From the sequence record PZ386971.1: DNA of 64,000 bases. One strand, 5' to 3'. The notes beneath the pieces were generated by a model that was given only the letters and a program-made list of their open reading frames with translations, had not been told where the DNA came from and ran no database searches. The position numbers were made by a program, and so were the translations under genes. This document shows, piece by piece, positions 542-25,083 of the stretch (positions are counted from its first letter, which is position 1; every line of letters begins with the position of its first letter). Origin of the DNA: a phage.

Positions 542-548
542 CAGAAGT

Positions 549-572
549 CCCCAACAAACGTTGGGGATTTTT
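549..572 (+). terminator. hairpin terminator (CCCCAAC-aaacg-TTGGGG + TTTTT), copy 1 of a duplicated cassette
   Basis: Perfect stem followed by T run; near-identical copy at 904-927. Confidence 0.6.
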
Positions 573-583
573 ACTTTTAGGGG

Positions 584-612
584 TTTACTTCTATAATGTA
601 AATGCGTATTAT
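584..612 (+). promoter_or_regulatory. early sigma70-type promoter TTTACT-N17-TATTAT
   Basis: Member of a 7-copy family with identical -35 TTTACT and 17-nt spacing. Confidence 0.5.
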
Positions 613-1319: not shown

Positions 1320-1826
1320 ATGACCGATCAACAAATTCAAGATTTATTTTACCTCGTCCATGATAAGTCCCACATCATGCGCCCCGGTACTGTTTCCCCT
1401 GCCGTCCGTGATCTGGTGCAAGAATTGCGCGAACCACAGACGACCACACTTTATCGCGGGTTGCCTAAAGAGGACGTTGCGCGTTTAGAGATGATGTTTG
1501 AACGAGGCGACATGTTCCAGACATGGGATTCTTGCCTTAGCTTCAGTGAACTGAAGCATGTGGCCAAAAAATTTTCTAAATCGTACGGAACCCAAGCTGT
1601 TGCCCGCATTTGTTACAAACATCGAAACAGACTCCCGGAGGGGCTTAATGTCTATGGTTCTCTAGAAAAATTTGTGAACAAAGGCGATGAATCAGAAATG
1701 GATATGCTGGACTTGGCGTCCATGGAGAAAGAATGGATATTCTGCCAGCCTCGCGTCATACCAGTTTCAAGAAAAATGGCAACAGACGGCACGATGGTTT
1801 TTACCGTATCACTTGTTACCCTATAA
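1320..1826 (+). CDS. putative mono-ADP-ribosyltransferase-like early protein (R-S-ExE signature: LYRG ... SCLSFS ... MEKEW)
   Basis: Track ORF begins at TTG 1299; real ATG at 1320 after conserved leader AGGAACTATACCATG; motif order resembles ART toxins and T4 ModA/ModB. Confidence 0.35.
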   Translation: MTDQQIQDLFYLVHDKSHIMRPGTVSPAVRDLVQELREPQTTTLYRGLPKEDVARLEMMFERGDMFQTWDSCLSFSELKHVAKKFSKSYGTQAVARICYKHRNRLPEGLNVYGSLEKFVNKGDESEMDMLDLASMEKEWIFCQPRVIPVSRKMATDGTMVFTVSLVTL

Positions 1827-1878: not shown

Positions 1879-2256
1879 ATGAAAAAGTTAATCCTCGCTG
1901 TTGCCCTGCTGGGCGCTTCCTTTGCTGCTGTTTCCGCCCCTCCTGTCATCACCGGAGTGTCTACCAACGGTGTTTATGCTTTCAAGGCGTATGGCCAAGA
2001 CCTCGTTCTGTATAAGAACGGGAAGATGATTGAGCGCTGCGTATCAGACGACGTGAATCGTGGGATCGACAATCAGGGTAGCCCATACGTCCTGGACATC
2101 TATTCCTGCTCCAACGGGACGAAGTCCTTTGGCGTCAAGACCTTTGGCAACGTCGCCGACGGTGGCTGGGGCTTCATGTTCGAAACCCGCAACCACCACC
2201 CGGTCAAGACCATGCAAGAAGAGTTCTTGATCTCTGTCGGGGGTGGAACATTATGA
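1879..2256 (+). CDS. secreted/periplasmic small protein with signal peptide (MKKLILAVALLGASFAAVSA)
   Basis: Internal ATG after conserved leader; classical n-h-c signal peptide. Confidence 0.55.
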   Translation: MKKLILAVALLGASFAAVSAPPVITGVSTNGVYAFKAYGQDLVLYKNGKMIERCVSDDVNRGIDNQGSPYVLDIYSCSNGTKSFGVKTFGNVADGGWGFMFETRNHHPVKTMQEEFLISVGGGTL

Positions 2257-2540
2257 CGCCTGAACAACGCCGTTCCGTGAAAGTCATGGTGAAAGGTAAG
2301 ACTCAGCTGAGTTATGTCCAGTCTGCCAATGTTGTCCGCCTGATGGAAGTCAAGAACGACATCGACAACTCCCGATTCCAATCGGCACTCTACGGGCTTC
2401 TCGAGTTCGTTCTTCGCCAGGCTGATCTTGGTCCTGTCTATACTCTTGATGATCTGACCAAGCTGTTGAACACGGGCGGGGAAGGTTTCGACACTGCTCG
2501 TATCCTGATTGACGGTGGACCTAAAGAAGACGAGGTATAA
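2253..2540 (+). CDS. hypothetical protein (95 aa)
   Basis: ATGA overlap with upstream stop (translational coupling). Confidence 0.45.
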   Translation: MTPEQRRSVKVMVKGKTQLSYVQSANVVRLMEVKNDIDNSRFQSALYGLLEFVLRQADLGPVYTLDDLTKLLNTGGEGFDTARILIDGGPKEDEV

Positions 2541-2541
2541 T

Positions 2542-2700
2542 TTGGATAAAGAATTGGTTTGGGAAATTGTGAAGGGTGTCCTAGTAATAATCGCGGTGGT
2601 TTTCATCTTGGGTGGAAACTTCTTCTATTGGTTATTCCGATCCGACCAGAAACGTCGCGAACGCAAGGAGAAAGAGAGAAAGGATCGATGGATGCGCTAA
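2542..2700 (+). CDS. small membrane protein, single TM helix and basic C-terminus (TTG start?)
   Basis: TTG with GAGG 6 nt upstream; hydrophobic core VLVIIAVVFILGG; start uncertain. Confidence 0.3.
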   Translation: MDKELVWEIVKGVLVIIAVVFILGGNFFYWLFRSDQKRRERKEKERKDRWMR

Positions 2701-2732
2701 CTAAGGGATAACCCTATATCCCGAGGTGTGTC

Positions 2733-3182
2733 ATGTTCCTTACATCCTTTATTGACTGGTTGAACATCATTAACGGCCTGAGGATCCCTGTTGGGAACCT
2801 CGGGCTTTCTCGTTCTTCTATGCCGCAAATCGATGCCGACAAACAAGAAGATTTTCACAAATATCTTGAAGACAACGGCGTGTCCATAGATGCTGTGCAA
2901 GTGCCCATCAAAATGCTTCGTCTCACCCAGAACGAAATCAACAAGATGAAGGTCTGGAAGATCATGAAGCAGATCAGAAATAAGAAACCTATGGGTCGAG
3001 TTTGGGTGTCTTCTGACAATTACGTTGTTGACGGTTCTCACCGATTTGTCGCTGCGTTGAACATGGACGGCAAACAGCGCATGAAGGTCTACAAAGTTGA
3101 TTTGCCAGCGATGGAATTTGTTAAACTCGCTAAACAGTTTCAGGGTGTGCGATACAGAACGGTCAGCGATACCCGTTTCTGA
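2733..3182 (+). CDS. ParB-like nuclease domain protein
   Basis: ParB N-terminal-domain motif VVDGSHRFVAA. Confidence 0.55.
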   Translation: MFLTSFIDWLNIINGLRIPVGNLGLSRSSMPQIDADKQEDFHKYLEDNGVSIDAVQVPIKMLRLTQNEINKMKVWKIMKQIRNKKPMGRVWVSSDNYVVDGSHRFVAALNMDGKQRMKVYKVDLPAMEFVKLAKQFQGVRYRTVSDTRF

Positions 3183-3261
3183 ATACGATAGTTTATTGAA
3201 ACCCTTTACTCATCATGGTGAGCCGCCTATCATTTCATCCAATGAAATAAGGAGAATCACC

Positions 3262-3948
3262 ATGAAACGTTTAATCCTCGGGGTCGTGCTGTCTGGTCTG
3301 GCATTACCCGCCGCTGCTAAGCTGAACTCCACAGGTGATAAACTGTGGTCCGACCTTTCCTATTGTGCTGGGTTCTCCCAGGCGGTTGCCATCGACAAGT
3401 CTGGTTCCATAGAGAACTTCGCTGAACTCTGGAACACAGGCAACGTCTCCACTGCTGTCGTCAATGCCGGAATTGAGTTCAACCGTTACAAACAGGGAGC
3501 CTATAACCTCAAGGGCTACCTCAATGACGACGAATTTAACCGTGGAGGCATGGAGGCTGGCGATTTGATCATGACTGGGCGTATGGGCACCCAAGGCCGA
3601 ATGACCGTAAGACAGTGCCGTTCGCTCCCTTCTCCGGCATTACAGAAGGGTGTGCAGGTTGGTCGCCGCCACCTGAACCTCATCAACGATGGCAACCAGT
3701 GCGTCAAAGTATTCGAATACAGCGCTACGCAGACCTCTGATCGCGTCCTGAAGAAGGAATGGCGCACCCGCGCTCTTGGTCTCAGAGCCTGGCTGGTTGA
3801 GAACGATTATTACTTTGAAGACAGGGTTCAGAACGGTCTGAAAGACCTGGCCACGAATCTGAGCGTGAACCTTGATGATCCTCGCATGTCGCGCGAACTC
3901 CAGCAGACTCGTGTTGACTGCGACAATATGATGAAGGAGAACGAGTGA
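3262..3948 (+). CDS. secreted protein with signal peptide (MKRLILGVVLSGLALPAAAK)
   Basis: Track ORF starts at TTG 3097; ATG 3262 has RBS AGGAGAA; signal peptide. Confidence 0.55.
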   Translation: MKRLILGVVLSGLALPAAAKLNSTGDKLWSDLSYCAGFSQAVAIDKSGSIENFAELWNTGNVSTAVVNAGIEFNRYKQGAYNLKGYLNDDEFNRGGMEAGDLIMTGRMGTQGRMTVRQCRSLPSPALQKGVQVGRRHLNLINDGNQCVKVFEYSATQTSDRVLKKEWRTRALGLRAWLVENDYYFEDRVQNGLKDLATNLSVNLDDPRMSRELQQTRVDCDNMMKENE

Positions 3949-4274
3949 TGAAATGTAAAATCTTGCTCTTGTTGGTACTGATAGCCGGATGTGTAAACGC
4001 CGCGCCACCGTCCAAACTGAACACATGTGTGGCATGGATGGAGACGTATCAGCAGTTCCACCCAGATGACAAAGACACATCTATCCTCCTGTCTGACTTT
4101 GAGGGAGAGCTGAAGCGCCTTGATCTGTTCAGTGTTGATCAGATAGAGAATGCGCTGGATCTTCCCATGATGCTGACTGCGGCTGATAACAGTCCACAAA
4201 CGAAAAAAGACCTGATGTATTGTCGGGGGATTGCCCAGGACTTTGTCGGATTTCAAAATAAAGTTTCGGGTTAA
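3948..4274 (+). CDS. lipoprotein (lipobox LIAGC), candidate superinfection-exclusion factor
   Basis: Signal peptide ending L-I-A-G-C; TGATG overlap with upstream gene. Confidence 0.5.
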   Translation: MKCKILLLLVLIAGCVNAAPPSKLNTCVAWMETYQQFHPDDKDTSILLSDFEGELKRLDLFSVDQIENALDLPMMLTAADNSPQTKKDLMYCRGIAQDFVGFQNKVSG

Positions 4275-4313: not shown

Positions 4314-5180
4314 ATGCTCCTGACCAAAACAATCGCTGCGGCGATTATCGAAAAGAATAAGGCTTTTGCCCCCAACGCAGCCAAAGTTATGTTGGTACAC
4401 GAAGACGCTCGCGTGATCTTCGCCGAGAAGTTCGAGATGGGCGCGAAGTTCTGGTATGCCGACAACTTACGTGAGAGCAAACTTCAGGGTATCATCCACA
4501 AACTGACTCTGGTCGCCAAGCGTAATGACCAGGGTGACTGGGTCGGCGTTTCTGACTTCAGTACGAAGATCACCCCAAAGGCTCCGCTTTCTCGTCAAGA
4601 GCGCATTCTGGAAGCCCAGGAAAAGCTGCGTGCGGCTCGGAGTACCACAAAGGCGAAGCCAGATGCAAGCCCTGTCATCAAGCCAGCGGTTGTTCCTAAG
4701 TCCAAATACCTCCCGCCCGTGAGTCAAAAGTCTGTGGAGCAATTGGTTGAGAAGCGCAAGGGTGACGTTGTGATGAAGTCTGACTCTTCAGTGGAGTCGT
4801 TCAAGCCGGATCCAGCAGAAGTACAGGCGCTGGCAGAAAAGGTAAAGAATTCACAATTCATTTCCCTGCGCGAACTTGAACCGCCTACTCGCCGTCGTAT
4901 CGCCAACGAGCTGTTTGTGTCGTTCAGGTCGGATGGCAAGATCGTCCTGTGCAAAGCCCTGCGCGATGCAATCCCTTGGACAACTCTGAACATGATGGTC
5001 ACTCGCGACTTCAAGCGTTTTGGTATCATGCAAGGCAAGGACTACAACGTCAACCAGAGCGGGACTTATGTTAATCGCGCCATGTGTGACAAACTGACCT
5101 TCCCAGAAGACACCGGAACGATCCGTGTCGTTCTGAATTGGGATGACAAGCTGAACATGTATGTTGGCGATTTCCAATAA
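4314..5180 (+). CDS. hypothetical protein, two domains joined by Lys/Pro-rich linker
   Basis: ATG with GAAGGAA RBS; long ORF. Confidence 0.5.
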   Translation: MLLTKTIAAAIIEKNKAFAPNAAKVMLVHEDARVIFAEKFEMGAKFWYADNLRESKLQGIIHKLTLVAKRNDQGDWVGVSDFSTKITPKAPLSRQERILEAQEKLRAARSTTKAKPDASPVIKPAVVPKSKYLPPVSQKSVEQLVEKRKGDVVMKSDSSVESFKPDPAEVQALAEKVKNSQFISLRELEPPTRRRIANELFVSFRSDGKIVLCKALRDAIPWTTLNMMVTRDFKRFGIMQGKDYNVNQSGTYVNRAMCDKLTFPEDTGTIRVVLNWDDKLNMYVGDFQ

Positions 5181-5236
5181 TCAATAACCTCGGGCGGCTT
5201 ATCATAAAGCTGCCCTTTCATTTGAGAGACTATATC

Positions 5237-23545: not shown

Positions 23546-23617
23546 AATCACATAGGGCGGCAACACACCGCCGAATGAAAAGTGAAACGAACCAACTACA
23601 TTATGAGGAATTACATC

Positions 23618-24106
23618 ATGGCTACTACCAAAACTCTGATCACCAACGGCACCATCTCTTTCGAACTGAACACCGAAGTTGCTAAAGTTGAAATGTTCCG
23701 CATCGCTCAAGCAGCTGGCTTCACTGGTGGCAAAACTTCCTTCATGAACCTGCTGAACGGTAAAGTGAAAGCGACTAACGGCTTCACCCTGGTAGAGCAG
23801 GTTGTGGTTGATAAAGCTGTGGTTGCTAAGACTGCCGACAAAGTTGGTATGCTGAAAAACCTGGGCCACGACATTCACATTGTCGAAGCGAAGACCGAAA
23901 CTTACGGCACCATCGTAGTCGGTAAAGGTCGCATCCAGCTGAACCCACTGAACAACGGTTCCTTCTCTGTGATGGTCTTCCCTAAGAAGGGATACGACAA
24001 CACCGACATCGTGAAAGCTGCTGGCGGCGAAGCAAAAGCTCAGTACGTCAAAATGGGTAAACTGAGCGCCGACGCAGTTGAAGATCTGGTGAGCAAACTG
24101 GCCTAA
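23618..24106 (+). CDS. abundant hypothetical protein (162 aa), highly codon-optimised
   Basis: ATG with GAGGAA RBS; strong promoter; optimal codons. Confidence 0.6.
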   Translation: MATTKTLITNGTISFELNTEVAKVEMFRIAQAAGFTGGKTSFMNLLNGKVKATNGFTLVEQVVVDKAVVAKTADKVGMLKNLGHDIHIVEAKTETYGTIVVGKGRIQLNPLNNGSFSVMVFPKKGYDNTDIVKAAGGEAKAQYVKMGKLSADAVEDLVSKLA

Positions 24107-24261: not shown

Positions 24262-24288
24262 TCTGCATTCATTGTGGAGGTATTTCTT

Positions 24289-25083
24289 ATGGCCATTCTA
24301 AAACTTGGCAACCGTGGCACTGAAGTGAAGGCACTTCAGGATAGCCTCAACAAAATCGGCTTCACCCTCGTCGCTGATGGTATCTTTGGCAAGGCAACAG
24401 AGAACGCCGTCAAGACTGTTCAGGCGGGTGCGGGGCTTGTCATCGATGGTATCGTGGGTCCAAAGACCTCCTATGCTATTCGCAACGCCGGAGACGCCCA
24501 TCAGGATCATCTAACTGAGTCAGACCTGATTGATGCTGCTAACGATCTGGGTGTTGACCTCGCCTCTGTCAAGGCGGTGAATCAGGTTGAGTCGCGCGGC
24601 ACGGGCTTCACCAAGTCAGGTAAGATCAAGACATTATTTGAGCGCCACATCATGTATAAGAAGCTGATGGCGAAGTTCGGACAGGCTCGGGCGAATGCCA
24701 TGGGACATATGTACCCGACGTTGGTCAGTCCTTCCGCAGGCGGGTACACGGGAGGCGACGCGGAGTTGGATCGACTTCATGCGGCCATCAACATCGATGA
24801 GGATTGTGCGTACGAGAGCGCCTCTTACGGTCTCTTCCAGATCATGGGATTCAACTGCCAGGTCTGTGGATACGCCAACGCCAAGGAGATGTTCAACGAC
24901 TTCCTGACAGGAGAACGTGCTCATTTGATGGCATTCGTGAAGTTCATCAAGGCTGACGCCAAGCTCTGGCAGGCTCTGAAGGACAAGAACTGGTCTGAAT
25001 TTGCACGGCGCTATAATGGTCCGGCGTATGCCAAGAACCAGTACGACAAGAAGCTCGCAGCAGCATACAAGAGTTTCAGTTAA
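24289..25083 (+). CDS. endolysin: N-terminal peptidoglycan-binding domain + C-terminal N-acetylmuramidase (DUF3380-like)
   Basis: PG_binding_1-like N-terminus (LKLGNRGTEVKALQ ... DGIFG); C-terminal motifs typical of DUF3380 muramidases. Confidence 0.7.
   Translation: MAILKLGNRGTEVKALQDSLNKIGFTLVADGIFGKATENAVKTVQAGAGLVIDGIVGPKTSYAIRNAGDAHQDHLTESDLIDAANDLGVDLASVKAVNQVESRGTGFTKSGKIKTLFERHIMYKKLMAKFGQARANAMGHMYPTLVSPSAGGYTGGDAELDRLHAAINIDEDCAYESASYGLFQIMGFNCQVCGYANAKEMFNDFLTGERAHLMAFVKFIKADAKLWQALKDKNWSEFARRYNGPAYAKNQYDKKLAAAYKSFS

What the first reader, a model, noticed from the sequence alone, without database searches (positions are those of the whole stretch)
1879..4274. Early-region cluster of exported proteins: two secreted proteins and a lipoprotein
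Genes at 1879..2256 and 3262..3948 encode proteins with classical signal peptides, and 3948..4274 encodes a lipoprotein with an L-I-A-G-C lipobox. Phage early lipoproteins are established receptor-masking superinfection-exclusion factors (T5 Llp precedent). A ParB-like nuclease (2733..3182) sits between them.
Basis: partly seen in the sequence, partly recalled or inferred. Interest (0 to 1): 0.55.

Follow-up and report, generated by a model that had tools for sequence, protein, structure and literature searches.

The report
Exported phage protein pair mislabelled spanins
The three exported proteins are really there, but the "lipoprotein" and its upstream partner are a coupled pair of periplasmic proteins found in every phage of this family (Ackermannviridae). 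Databases call them spanins (outer-membrane lysis proteins), a label that fails the defining tests, and their true function is unknown.

Summary
The window is an Agtrevirus-like Ackermannviridae phage (96.6% nt identity to Escherichia phage ZQ1). The ORFs at 1879-2256, 3262-3948 and 3948-4274 exist, and they are the only real genes in the 64 kb with signal-peptide-like N-termini. The 108-aa ORF carries the only credible lipobox in any frame.

That label traces to phage Marshall and PHROG 3843, with no experiment behind it.

It fails the defining features:
- The lipobox Cys is present in only 6 of 43 homologue clusters. Vi01, LIMEstone1, Magnus, Kevin, Bue1 and two divergent metagenomic relatives have plain AxA-type signal peptides.
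- The large protein keeps a -3/-1 cleavage motif in every homologue while its hydrophobic core drifts.

The pair is universal in the family (272-282 records), always overlaps by 4 nt, and is strongly conserved. The small protein folds confidently (pLDDT 87) into a compact helical bundle with no match in PDB.

Best reading: a two-protein periplasmic effector, lipid-anchored only in this clade, probably expressed early and acting on the envelope. Superinfection exclusion is plausible but untested. No Llp similarity was found.

The parts
1879..2256 (+). 125-aa accessory secreted protein (phrog_5474, unknown function). It has a Sec-type signal peptide and 2 conserved Cys.
   Evidence: ORF and sequence. 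PHROG E=1.5e-52, with no Pfam or NCBIfam family. The N-terminus is conserved in the 46%-identical Klebsiella phage Magnus homologue. Present in 105 phage records (Agtre-, Limestone- and Taipeivirus, few Kuttervirus).
2542..2700 (+). 52-aa single-TMD protein with a very basic C-tail (context gene, holin-like architecture, function unknown).
   Evidence: phrog_14464 'membrane protein'. Pfam Phage_holin_2_4 only at E=0.06. KD(19)=2.66 and Hessa sum -1.0.
2733..3182 (+). 149-aa cytoplasmic protein, possibly ParB/Srx fold (DGSHR motif). It is the best conserved gene of the block and always sits immediately upstream of the pair.
   Evidence: Weak PHROG ParB hits. Sulfiredoxin is the top PDB profile hit but E=0.93. 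93-99% aa identity to Magnus/Vi01 and 62% to Bue1.
3205..3233 (+). Sigma70-like promoter TTTACT-17-TATCAT, 29 nt upstream of the 228-aa gene.
   Evidence: The motif TTTACT-N16-18-TATNAT occurs 5 times in the window against 0.05 expected, always on the + strand. The site is identical in Marshall, CECAV_050 and Vi01.
3262..3948 (+). Large subunit: 228-aa exported protein (phrog_4260). Signal peptide with invariant P-A-x-A|K, 4 invariant Cys, mixed alpha/beta. Annotated 'i-spanin' in relatives.
   Evidence: AF2 failed (pLDDT 34).
3948..4274 (+). Small subunit: 108-aa exported protein (phrog_3843, 'Rz-like spanin'). It carries an LIAG|C lipobox here, plain SPase-I signals in most relatives, 2 invariant Cys, and a compact helical bundle.
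   Evidence: ATGA overlap with the upstream gene.
4314..5180 (+). 288-aa cytoplasmic protein (phrog_3828) in conserved synteny downstream. Probably the last gene of the same transcription unit.
   Evidence: Homologues in Vi01 (66%) and Bue1 (31%) sit at the same position.
5192..5215 (+). Intrinsic-terminator-like hairpin (9 pairs, 6 GC) followed by a T-run.

Best explanation
Genes 3262-3948 and 3948-4274 encode a two-protein periplasmic module that is a hallmark of Ackermannviridae. It is neither a spanin nor an Llp-type lipoprotein.

How it is made (inferred from sequence):
- Both proteins are made together: the genes overlap by 4 nt (ATGA), each has its own AGGAG, and a sigma70-type promoter lies upstream.
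- Both are exported by Sec and oxidised in the periplasm. The large protein has 4 invariant Cys and the small one has 2.
- The mature products are a ~209-aa alpha/beta protein and a ~90-aa acidic helical bundle.

In most of the family both are soluble periplasmic proteins. In this phage's clade (most Agtrevirus plus Marshall/Maynard) the small subunit's signal peptide was shortened and gained a lipobox. It is therefore probably tethered to the inner face of the outer membrane (Val at +2, no Lol-avoidance signal).

Proposed function (inferred, not shown): the two form a complex that binds a conserved envelope target from early in infection. The most likely role is protecting the infected cell's envelope against secondary attack, that is superinfection exclusion or protection from lysis from without, analogous in logic to T4 Spackle.

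The 125-aa protein (1879-2256) is an unrelated accessory secreted protein in a mosaic slot.
For: Export:
- The -3/-1 cleavage pattern of the large protein is kept in all 18 aligned homologues (P16, A17, A19 invariant) while the h-region varies.
- It is also kept in all distant homologues, whose signals are otherwise unrelated: AWS|E, ASA|A, ANA|G, VHA|R.
- The LIMEstone1 authors independently noted 'putative signal peptide' for both genes.

Lipidation is dispensable:
- A lipobox is present in 6 of 43 clusters at 90% identity.
- P0037 has AGS in place of AGC, with the same VNA|TP site.
- Vi01, PhiSH19, ISTP3, EspM4VN, LIMEstone1, Magnus, Kevin, Bue1 and two metagenomic relatives all have AxA-type signals.

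A coupled pair:
- The 4-nt overlap is conserved in the window, Vi01, Magnus, Bue1, L018 and L019.
- The large protein is found in 272 phage records and the small in 282, all Ackermannviridae-type.
- Only 10 hits appear among 1.8 billion representative proteins.

Strong constraint: the large protein is 85-94% identical between genera whose neighbouring genes are 33-66% identical.

Fold: the small protein has pLDDT 86.8 with five helices in a compact bundle.

Early-type expression: a sigma70-like promoter of a class enriched 100-fold in the window, terminator-promoter cassettes, and an ADP-ribosyltransferase homologue upstream.
Against: - Physical interaction of the two proteins is inferred only from gene coupling and co-occurrence.
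- Expression timing is inferred from promoter-like motifs alone. No transcriptome exists for the family.
- Signal-peptide cleavage is a rule-based call. The hydrophobicity of the large protein's N-terminus does not separate it from the T7 gp18.5 i-spanin anchor.
- The large protein could not be modelled (pLDDT 34).
Confidence: 0.45

Rival explanations
1. The pair is a two-component spanin, as annotated in Marshall, ChubbyThor, UniRef, PHROG 3843 and RefSeq. The 228-aa protein would be an inner-membrane i-spanin and the 108-aa lipoprotein an outer-membrane o-spanin, together fusing or disrupting the outer membrane at lysis.
For: - The gene architecture fits: an N-terminal hydrophobic protein is directly followed by, and overlaps, a lipobox protein.
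- It is the only lipobox ORF in the genome, and no other spanin candidate is annotated.
- Kongari et al. list the Marshall pair as a two-component spanin.
- The T7 i-spanin anchor is no more hydrophobic than this N-terminus.
- More than 120 accepted i-spanins lack a coiled-coil prediction.
Against: - The lipobox is absent from about 86% of homologue clusters and from 5 of the 6 genera examined. The family's conserved function therefore cannot need an outer-membrane lipid anchor.
- The large protein has a conserved SPase-I motif.
- The same paper lists Vi01, Maynard, SFP10, SJ2, SJ3, AG3, CBA120, PhaxI, ECML-4 and RC-2014 as spanin-less, although they carry the same pair.
- The Marshall pair is a singleton in both spanin classifications, with the longest periplasmic length in the data set (300 aa), 35% helix and zero coiled coil.
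- The small protein is a compact globular bundle with 5% Pro.
- The endolysin lies 20 kb away.
- The promoter is of sigma70 type rather than the T4-type late TATAAATA.
- No experiment exists.
Confidence: 0.12
2. The lipoprotein is a T5 Llp/Cor-type outer-membrane factor that masks the phage's own receptor, blocking superinfection and protecting progeny from adsorbing to debris.
For: In this phage the protein has a canonical lipobox with an outer-membrane sorting signal. It sits in a probably early transcription unit. Lipoproteins are rare in phages.
Against: - There is no similarity to Llp, Cor or any solved structure.
- It is not linked to the tailspike or receptor-binding genes, which in the relative lie about 40-55 kb away.
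- Lipidation is clade-specific and is replaced by Ser in a near-identical relative.
- From general knowledge, Ackermannviridae adsorb through tailspikes to O-antigen or capsule polysaccharide, which a periplasm-facing lipoprotein cannot mask.
- It is obligately paired with a second, larger exported protein, which Llp and Cor are not.
Confidence: 0.08
3. The pair regulates lysis timing from the periplasm, in the manner of T4 RI. RI is a secreted antiholin that binds the periplasmic domain of the holin. On this reading the pair would be a periplasmic sensor or antiholin for a still unidentified Ackermannviridae holin.
For: - Relatives of the window phage carry rIIA/rIIB, and no holin is annotated.
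- A holin-like 52-aa single-TMD protein lies 560 bp upstream.
- The small protein is a secreted helical protein with 2 Cys, of RI-like size.
- The same promoter class precedes the gene next to the endolysin.
Confidence: 0.1
4. The pair manipulates some other conserved host envelope process, such as a peptidoglycan hydrolase or lysozyme, a periplasmic protease or nuclease, an envelope stress sensor, or a secretin/pilotin-like system. It would do so for the benefit of replication rather than for exclusion.
For: - The pair is extremely conserved across phages infecting Salmonella, Escherichia, Klebsiella, Dickeya, Serratia and Erwinia, which points to a conserved target.
- The switch between soluble and lipidated forms recalls the PliC/MliC lysozyme inhibitors (general knowledge).
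Against: The structural matches are at the level of generic helix bundles. No specific target is indicated by any result.
Confidence: 0.2

Closest known systems
Lambda Rz/Rz1-type two-component spanins (and the 'separated' class such as T4 PseT.3/PseT.2)
   Same: Two adjacent, overlapping genes. The first has an N-terminal hydrophobic segment. The second, in this phage, has a lipobox with an outer-membrane sorting signal. Both have periplasmic Cys residues. This is why databases label them spanins.
   Different: The lipobox is missing in most family members. The first protein has a conserved cleavable signal peptide rather than an anchor. There is no homology to any spanin family (singletons in Kongari 2018). 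The small protein is globular rather than extended or proline-rich. The pair is not linked to the endolysin, and it has a sigma70-type promoter.
T5 Llp and Cor (phi80/N15/T1) receptor-blocking outer-membrane lipoproteins
   Same: A small phage lipoprotein predicted to go to the outer membrane, in a probably early transcription unit.
   Different: There is no sequence or structural similarity and no linkage to receptor-binding protein genes. Lipidation is not conserved. It is obligately paired with a second exported protein. The phages' primary receptors are surface polysaccharides.
T4 Spackle (Sp, gp61.3), a periplasmic inhibitor of the gp5 tail lysozyme
   Same: A small Sec-exported, largely helical, disulfide-containing periplasmic protein. 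It is encoded among early and replication genes of a T4-like myovirus and acts in the envelope of the infected cell.
   Different: There is no detectable fold or sequence similarity. This is a two-protein module. No evidence exists for lysozyme binding.
T4 RI antiholin
   Same: A secreted small helical periplasmic protein with Cys residues, in phages that also carry rIIA/rIIB.
   Different: There is no similarity to the RI or RI-T structures or families, and no identified holin partner.
PliC/MliC periplasmic versus membrane-bound lysozyme inhibitors (bacterial)
   Same: One conserved mature domain occurs either as a soluble periplasmic protein or as an outer-membrane lipoprotein, depending only on the signal peptide.
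   Different: The fold is unrelated (beta-rich inhibitors versus a helical bundle). This is an analogy of targeting logic only.

Membership tests
Two-component spanin: o-spanin | N-terminal lipoprotein signal (lipobox Cys) giving an outer-membrane lipid anchor | tested here: not met
   Met in this window (LIAG|C, Val at +2). It is absent from 37 of 43 homologue clusters and from Vi01, PhiSH19, ISTP3, EspM4VN, LIMEstone1, Magnus, Kevin, Bue1, L018 and L019. P0037 has Ser instead of Cys. It is therefore not a property of the family.
Two-component spanin: i-spanin | Type II (N-in, C-out) inner-membrane protein with an uncleaved N-terminal TMD | tested here: inconclusive
   This leans towards not met. 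The apolar run is 16 residues and ends in invariant P-A-x-A|K. The -3/-1 rule is kept in all close and distant homologues despite unrelated h-regions. Hydrophobicity (KD19 1.70) matches E. coli signal peptides, but T7 gp18.5 is no more hydrophobic. SignalP and fractionation were not available.
Two-component spanin | Adjacent, overlapping or embedded gene pair | tested here: met
   The 4-nt ATGA overlap is conserved across genera.
Two-component spanin | Homology to an experimentally validated spanin family | tested here: not met
   There is no Pfam or NCBIfam hit. The PHROG 3843 label contains only this family. Marshall is a singleton in both the i- and o-spanin classifications.
Two-component spanin | Linkage to holin/endolysin, or late expression | tested here: not met
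   The endolysin is at about 24.3-25.1 kb in the window, 20 kb away. A sigma70-like promoter lies upstream, and there is no TATAAATA nearby. This feature is not obligatory in T4-like phages.
Two-component spanin | Disrupts the outer membrane / complements lambda RzRz1 | not testable with these tools
   No experiment was found in the literature searched.
Llp/Cor-type superinfection-exclusion lipoprotein | Outer-membrane lipoprotein | tested here: inconclusive
   A motif is present in this clade only. A competing SPase-I site (VNA|A) lies 4 residues downstream.
Llp/Cor-type superinfection-exclusion lipoprotein | Sequence or fold similarity to Llp/Cor | tested here: not met
   No family hit. No PDB sequence or structure match.
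Llp/Cor-type superinfection-exclusion lipoprotein | Gene next to the receptor-binding protein gene | tested here: not met
   The neighbours are the ParB/Srx-like gene, a 288-aa gene, HU and a helicase. In the relative, the tailspikes are at 113-128 kb versus 74 kb for this gene.
Llp/Cor-type superinfection-exclusion lipoprotein | Blocks the phage receptor or adsorption | not testable with these tools
   Needs expression and adsorption/EOP assays.
T4 Spackle-like periplasmic exclusion protein | Fold similarity to Spackle and binding of a tail lysozyme | tested here: not met
ParB/Srx superfamily (for 2733-3182) | ParB N-terminal / sulfiredoxin fold with the DGxHR-type motif | tested here: inconclusive
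   The VVDGSHRFVAAL motif is invariant. PHROG ParB families match at E=0.0015 and 0.0097. No Pfam hit at E<=1. The PDB profile top hit is sulfiredoxin at E=0.93. Nuclease activity is unsupported.

The most novel reading that the evidence does not exclude
The universally conserved pair could be a previously unrecognised kind of phage envelope system built from two soluble periplasmic proteins (one optionally lipidated), in either of two forms.

(a) It is the missing outer-membrane-disruption or lysis-control device of the Ackermannviridae. These phages were classed as 'spanin-less', and no holin or spanin of theirs has ever been shown.

(b) It is a new two-component superinfection-exclusion system.

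Reading (a) would mean outer-membrane breaching without membrane-anchored spanins.
Probability: 0.15. Interest if true: 0.75.

Novelty: new variant of a known kind. Interest (0 to 1): 0.45.

Why it matters
Ackermannviridae (Vi01, CBA120 and their relatives) are among the phages most used for biocontrol of Salmonella, E. coli O157, Klebsiella and Dickeya. Yet their lysis and exclusion biology is essentially unstudied: a 2024 family review does not mention spanin, holin, endolysin or superinfection at all.

The label 'Rz-like spanin / i-spanin' now sits on these genes in many RefSeq and GenBank records and in published gene tables. It appears to stem from one unverified annotation, and the source paper contradicts itself about it.

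Showing that the label fails its defining features has two consequences:
- It reopens the question of how these phages breach the outer membrane.
- It identifies a strongly conserved, family-specific, exported two-protein module as a concrete target for experiment.

The natural lipobox, no-lipobox and Cys-to-Ser variants are a ready-made test of whether membrane tethering matters.

Tried and rejected
- **Structure of the 228-aa protein.** AF2 with 18 homologues gave pLDDT 34, so it was unusable and no fold search was done on it.
- **Remote homologues of the large protein.** A full HMMER scan of 1.8 billion representatives found only 10 hits, all from the family. P0068 and P0069 turned out to be divergent Ackermannviridae-like contigs with the same synteny, and IMG/VR scans for them found nothing.
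- **Family libraries.** Pfam, NCBIfam, PADLOC and PDB sequence searches returned nothing for either protein.
- **T4 holin-T/RI-like or Spackle-like pair.** Rejected at the fold level.
- **Large and small proteins as paralogues.** Both share a Cys-x-A-aromatic motif after the signal and a C-terminal Cys, but hhalign aligned only 8-9 residues at 15% probability, so this was rejected.
- **Hydrophobicity as a discriminator of signal peptide versus i-spanin anchor.** Inconclusive, because the T7 gp18.5 anchor is weakly hydrophobic.
- **Vi01 'superinfection exclusion protein' (Vi01_111c) and Bue1 gp090.** They have no signal peptide or TMD and are absent from the window, so they are not relevant.
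- **Transcriptome literature for the family.** None was found.
- **T4-type late promoter TATAAATA.** Three sites in the window, none near the region.
Full report
**Identity of the window.** Megablast of 1200-5200 hits 274 phage records, all Ackermannviridae-type. The best are Escherichia phage vB_EcoM-ZQ1 and Enterobacter phage fGh-Ecl02 (96.6% over 100%), then AV101 and Salmonella phage vB_CECAV_050, an Agtrevirus. The region lies between an acyl-carrier-protein gene and an HU/helicase/RNase H/late-sigma block.

**Observation.**
- 1879-2256 gives MKKLILAVALLGASFAAVSAPP....
- 3262-3948 gives MKRLILGVVLSGLALPAAAKLNS..., with AGGAG 8 nt upstream.
- 3948-4274 gives MKCKILLLLVLIAGCVNAAPPS..., with AGGAG upstream and its ATG overlapping the previous TGA (ATGA).

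A rule-based signal-peptide scan of every ORF in six frames returns these three as the only real genes with such N-termini in 64 kb. A six-frame lipobox scan of the window plus 150 kb of the 94%-identical vB_CECAV_050 returns the 108-aa ORF as the only credible lipoprotein.

The 'ParB-like nuclease' (2733-3182) is weaker. It gets only marginal PHROG ParB hits and no Pfam hit. A profile search of PDB puts sulfiredoxin (ParB/Srx fold) first, aligning DGSHR with SGCHR, but at E=0.93.

**What the databases say.** In Salmonella phage Marshall the homologues of 3262-3948 and 3948-4274 are annotated i-spanin and o-spanin. ChubbyThor, ISTP3, UniRef and many RefSeq records follow, and the small protein falls in phrog_3843 'Rz-like spanin'.

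Kongari et al. 2018 (PMC6139136) list the Marshall pair as a two-component spanin, but as a singleton in both classifications. It has the longest periplasmic length of the whole data set (300 residues), an i-spanin domain only 35% helical, and no coiled coil. The same paper lists Vi01, Maynard, SFP10, SJ2, SJ3, phiSboM-AG3, CBA120, PhaxI, ECML-4 and RC-2014 as spanin-less. Vi01, Maynard, SJ2, SJ3, AG3, PhaxI and RC-2014 were seen here to carry the same genes.

Neither genome announcement discusses spanins. A 2024 review of the family never mentions spanin, holin, endolysin or superinfection. A proteomics paper only repeats the labels. The spanin call is therefore an unverified and internally inconsistent annotation.

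**Test of the o-spanin / lipoprotein feature.** I aligned 35 homologue clusters of the small protein. The mature domain is strongly conserved: invariant C27, W30, Y34, Q36-F37-H38 and C92. The signal region is not.

Only 6 of 43 clusters (49 of about 217 member sequences) have a lipobox, and all are the window's own clade. One near-identical cluster (P0037) reads LLLMAGSVNA|TP, with Ser in place of the Cys.

Representative genomes show the following:
- LIAGC: the window, Marshall and CECAV_050.
- LMAGC: SW16-7 and ChubbyThor.
- Plain AxA-type signals: EspM4VN (Agtrevirus), LIMEstone1 (Limestonevirus), PhiSH19, ISTP3 and Vi01 (Kuttervirus), Magnus (Taipeivirus), Kevin (Miltonvirus) and Bue1 (Nezavisimistyvirus).

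Two still more divergent metagenomic relatives also have plain signals. Compared with the 93%-identical LIMEstone-type sequence (..LAVAVAYIGGVYA|APPSK), the window's signal is 5 residues shorter and retains the ancestral SPase-I site (VNA|A) four residues after the Cys. Lipidation is thus a recent, dispensable variation. It is a property of this phage's protein, not of the family's function.

**Test of the i-spanin feature.** In 18 homologues of the large protein, P16, A17 and A19 are invariant and K20 nearly so, while the hydrophobic core varies. The distant homologues have entirely different signals that still obey the -3/-1 rule: P0068 at 37% identity, P0069 at 34%, and the short forms P0075 and Bue1 gp094. 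Their sites are AWS|E, ASA|A, ANA|G and VHA|R.

There is no reason for an uncleaved anchor to preserve this pattern. The LIMEstone1 authors also recorded 'putative signal peptide' for both genes. Hydrophobicity (KD19 1.70) resembles the OmpA, DsbA and MalE signals and is far below lambda Rz (2.63). The T7 gp18.5 anchor is weaker still, however, so this measure alone is inconclusive.

Other points:
- The endolysin lies 20 kb away, and no holin is annotated.
- The mature small protein has 5% Pro and pI 4.4.
- AlphaFold2 gives it a confident compact five-helix bundle (pLDDT 86.8, mature part above 90). That is not an extended periplasm-spanning shape.

**What the pair is.**
- The small protein is found in 282 phage records and the large one in 272. 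The remainder are short, divergent forms.
- The large protein has only 10 hits among 1.8 billion representative proteins.
- The 4-nt overlap is conserved from the window to Bue1 and the metagenomic relatives.
- Synteny is conserved: ParB/Srx-like gene, large, small, then a 288-320-aa protein.
- The large protein is 85-94% identical between genera whose neighbouring genes are 33-66% identical.
- Short forms keep C35 and C220 and lack the segment carrying C119 and C147. This suggests a C35-C220 disulfide, with a second one in an inserted subdomain.

**Expression context.** A sigma70-like site, TTTACT-17-TATCAT, lies at 3205-3233. That motif class occurs 5 times in the window against 0.05 expected, always on the + strand. 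One of the other sites precedes the gene next to the endolysin. A strong terminator-like hairpin follows the 288-aa gene at 5192-5215.

Upstream are two identical hairpin-plus-promoter cassettes and an Alt/Mod-type ADP-ribosyltransferase homologue. No T4-type late promoter is nearby. This fits early or middle transcription by host polymerase, but no transcriptome exists to confirm it.

**Interpretation.**
- Shown by sequence: the three genes have export signals, the lipobox is clade-specific, the pair is coupled and universal in the family, and the small protein's fold is new.
- Inferred: both proteins are released into the periplasm, except that the small one is tethered to the outer membrane in this clade. 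They form a complex and act on a conserved envelope target from early in infection.

I consider superinfection exclusion or envelope protection (in Spackle-like logic) the most likely role, with low confidence. Spanin function, Llp-type receptor masking, RI-type lysis control and other envelope manipulation are rivals.

The 125-aa protein is a separate accessory secreted protein. It occurs in 105 records and is 46% identical in Taipeivirus. It sits in a mosaic slot that holds other genes in Marshall and Vi01.

**Verdict.** The prevailing database annotation (spanin) fails its defining features at family level. What remains is a family-specific two-protein periplasmic module of unknown function. 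It is moderately interesting, mainly because it reopens how 'spanin-less' Ackermannviridae deal with the outer membrane and gives a clean set of natural variants to test.

Noticed in passing
window 548-597 and 904-969: There are two identical 26-nt GC-rich hairpins (TCCCCAACAAACGTTGGGGATTTTTA). Each is followed by a GGGGTTTACTTC...TAT(A/T)AT promoter-like site. These are terminator-promoter cassettes flanking a 74-aa ORF.
   Followed up: partly
window 570, 584, 941, 3205, 23517 (+ strand): The motif TTTACT-N16-18-TATNAT occurs 5 times against 0.05 expected, always on the + strand. It is probably the phage's host-polymerase promoter class. One copy precedes the gene next to the endolysin.
   Followed up: partly
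window 2542-2700: A 52-aa protein has one strong TMD and a very basic C-tail (RSDQKRRERKEKERKDRWMR). This is a holin-like architecture in a family with no annotated holin. The Pfam holin hit is only E=0.06.
   Followed up: partly
window 1320-1826: This is a homologue of the T4 Alt/Mod-type RNA polymerase ADP-ribosyltransferase (phrog_832, E=6e-15). Together with the 125-aa secreted-protein gene it occupies a mosaic slot that holds a 102-aa ORF in Marshall and denV in Vi01.
   Followed up: no
window 2733-3182: The ParB/Srx-like 149-aa protein is the most conserved gene of the block (93-99% to Taipeivirus/Kuttervirus, 62% to Bue1). It always sits directly upstream of the exported pair. One record calls it 'cytidyltransferase'.
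   Followed up: partly
L007 4454-5233 (Bue1 gp092); L018 7237-8028: Divergent Ackermannviridae carry a separate SPFH/Band_7 lipoprotein (..LLAGC|GVIDQG) two to three genes downstream of the pair. It is also reported in Vi01-like Sajous1. It is absent from the window and from vB_CECAV_050, the lineage where the small protein itself has gained a lipobox.
   Followed up: no
Kongari et al. 2018 (PMC6139136) versus L001 and L006: The spanin census counts the Marshall pair as a spanin but lists at least ten phages of the same family as spanin-less; seven of them were seen here to carry the same genes. The 'Rz-like spanin' label has since spread through PHROGs and RefSeq.
   Followed up: yes
window 24274-25083: The endolysin gene (annotated N-acetylmuramidase in relatives) has no adjacent membrane-protein gene. 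Its upstream neighbour, 23582-24106, is a soluble 174-aa protein.
   Followed up: no
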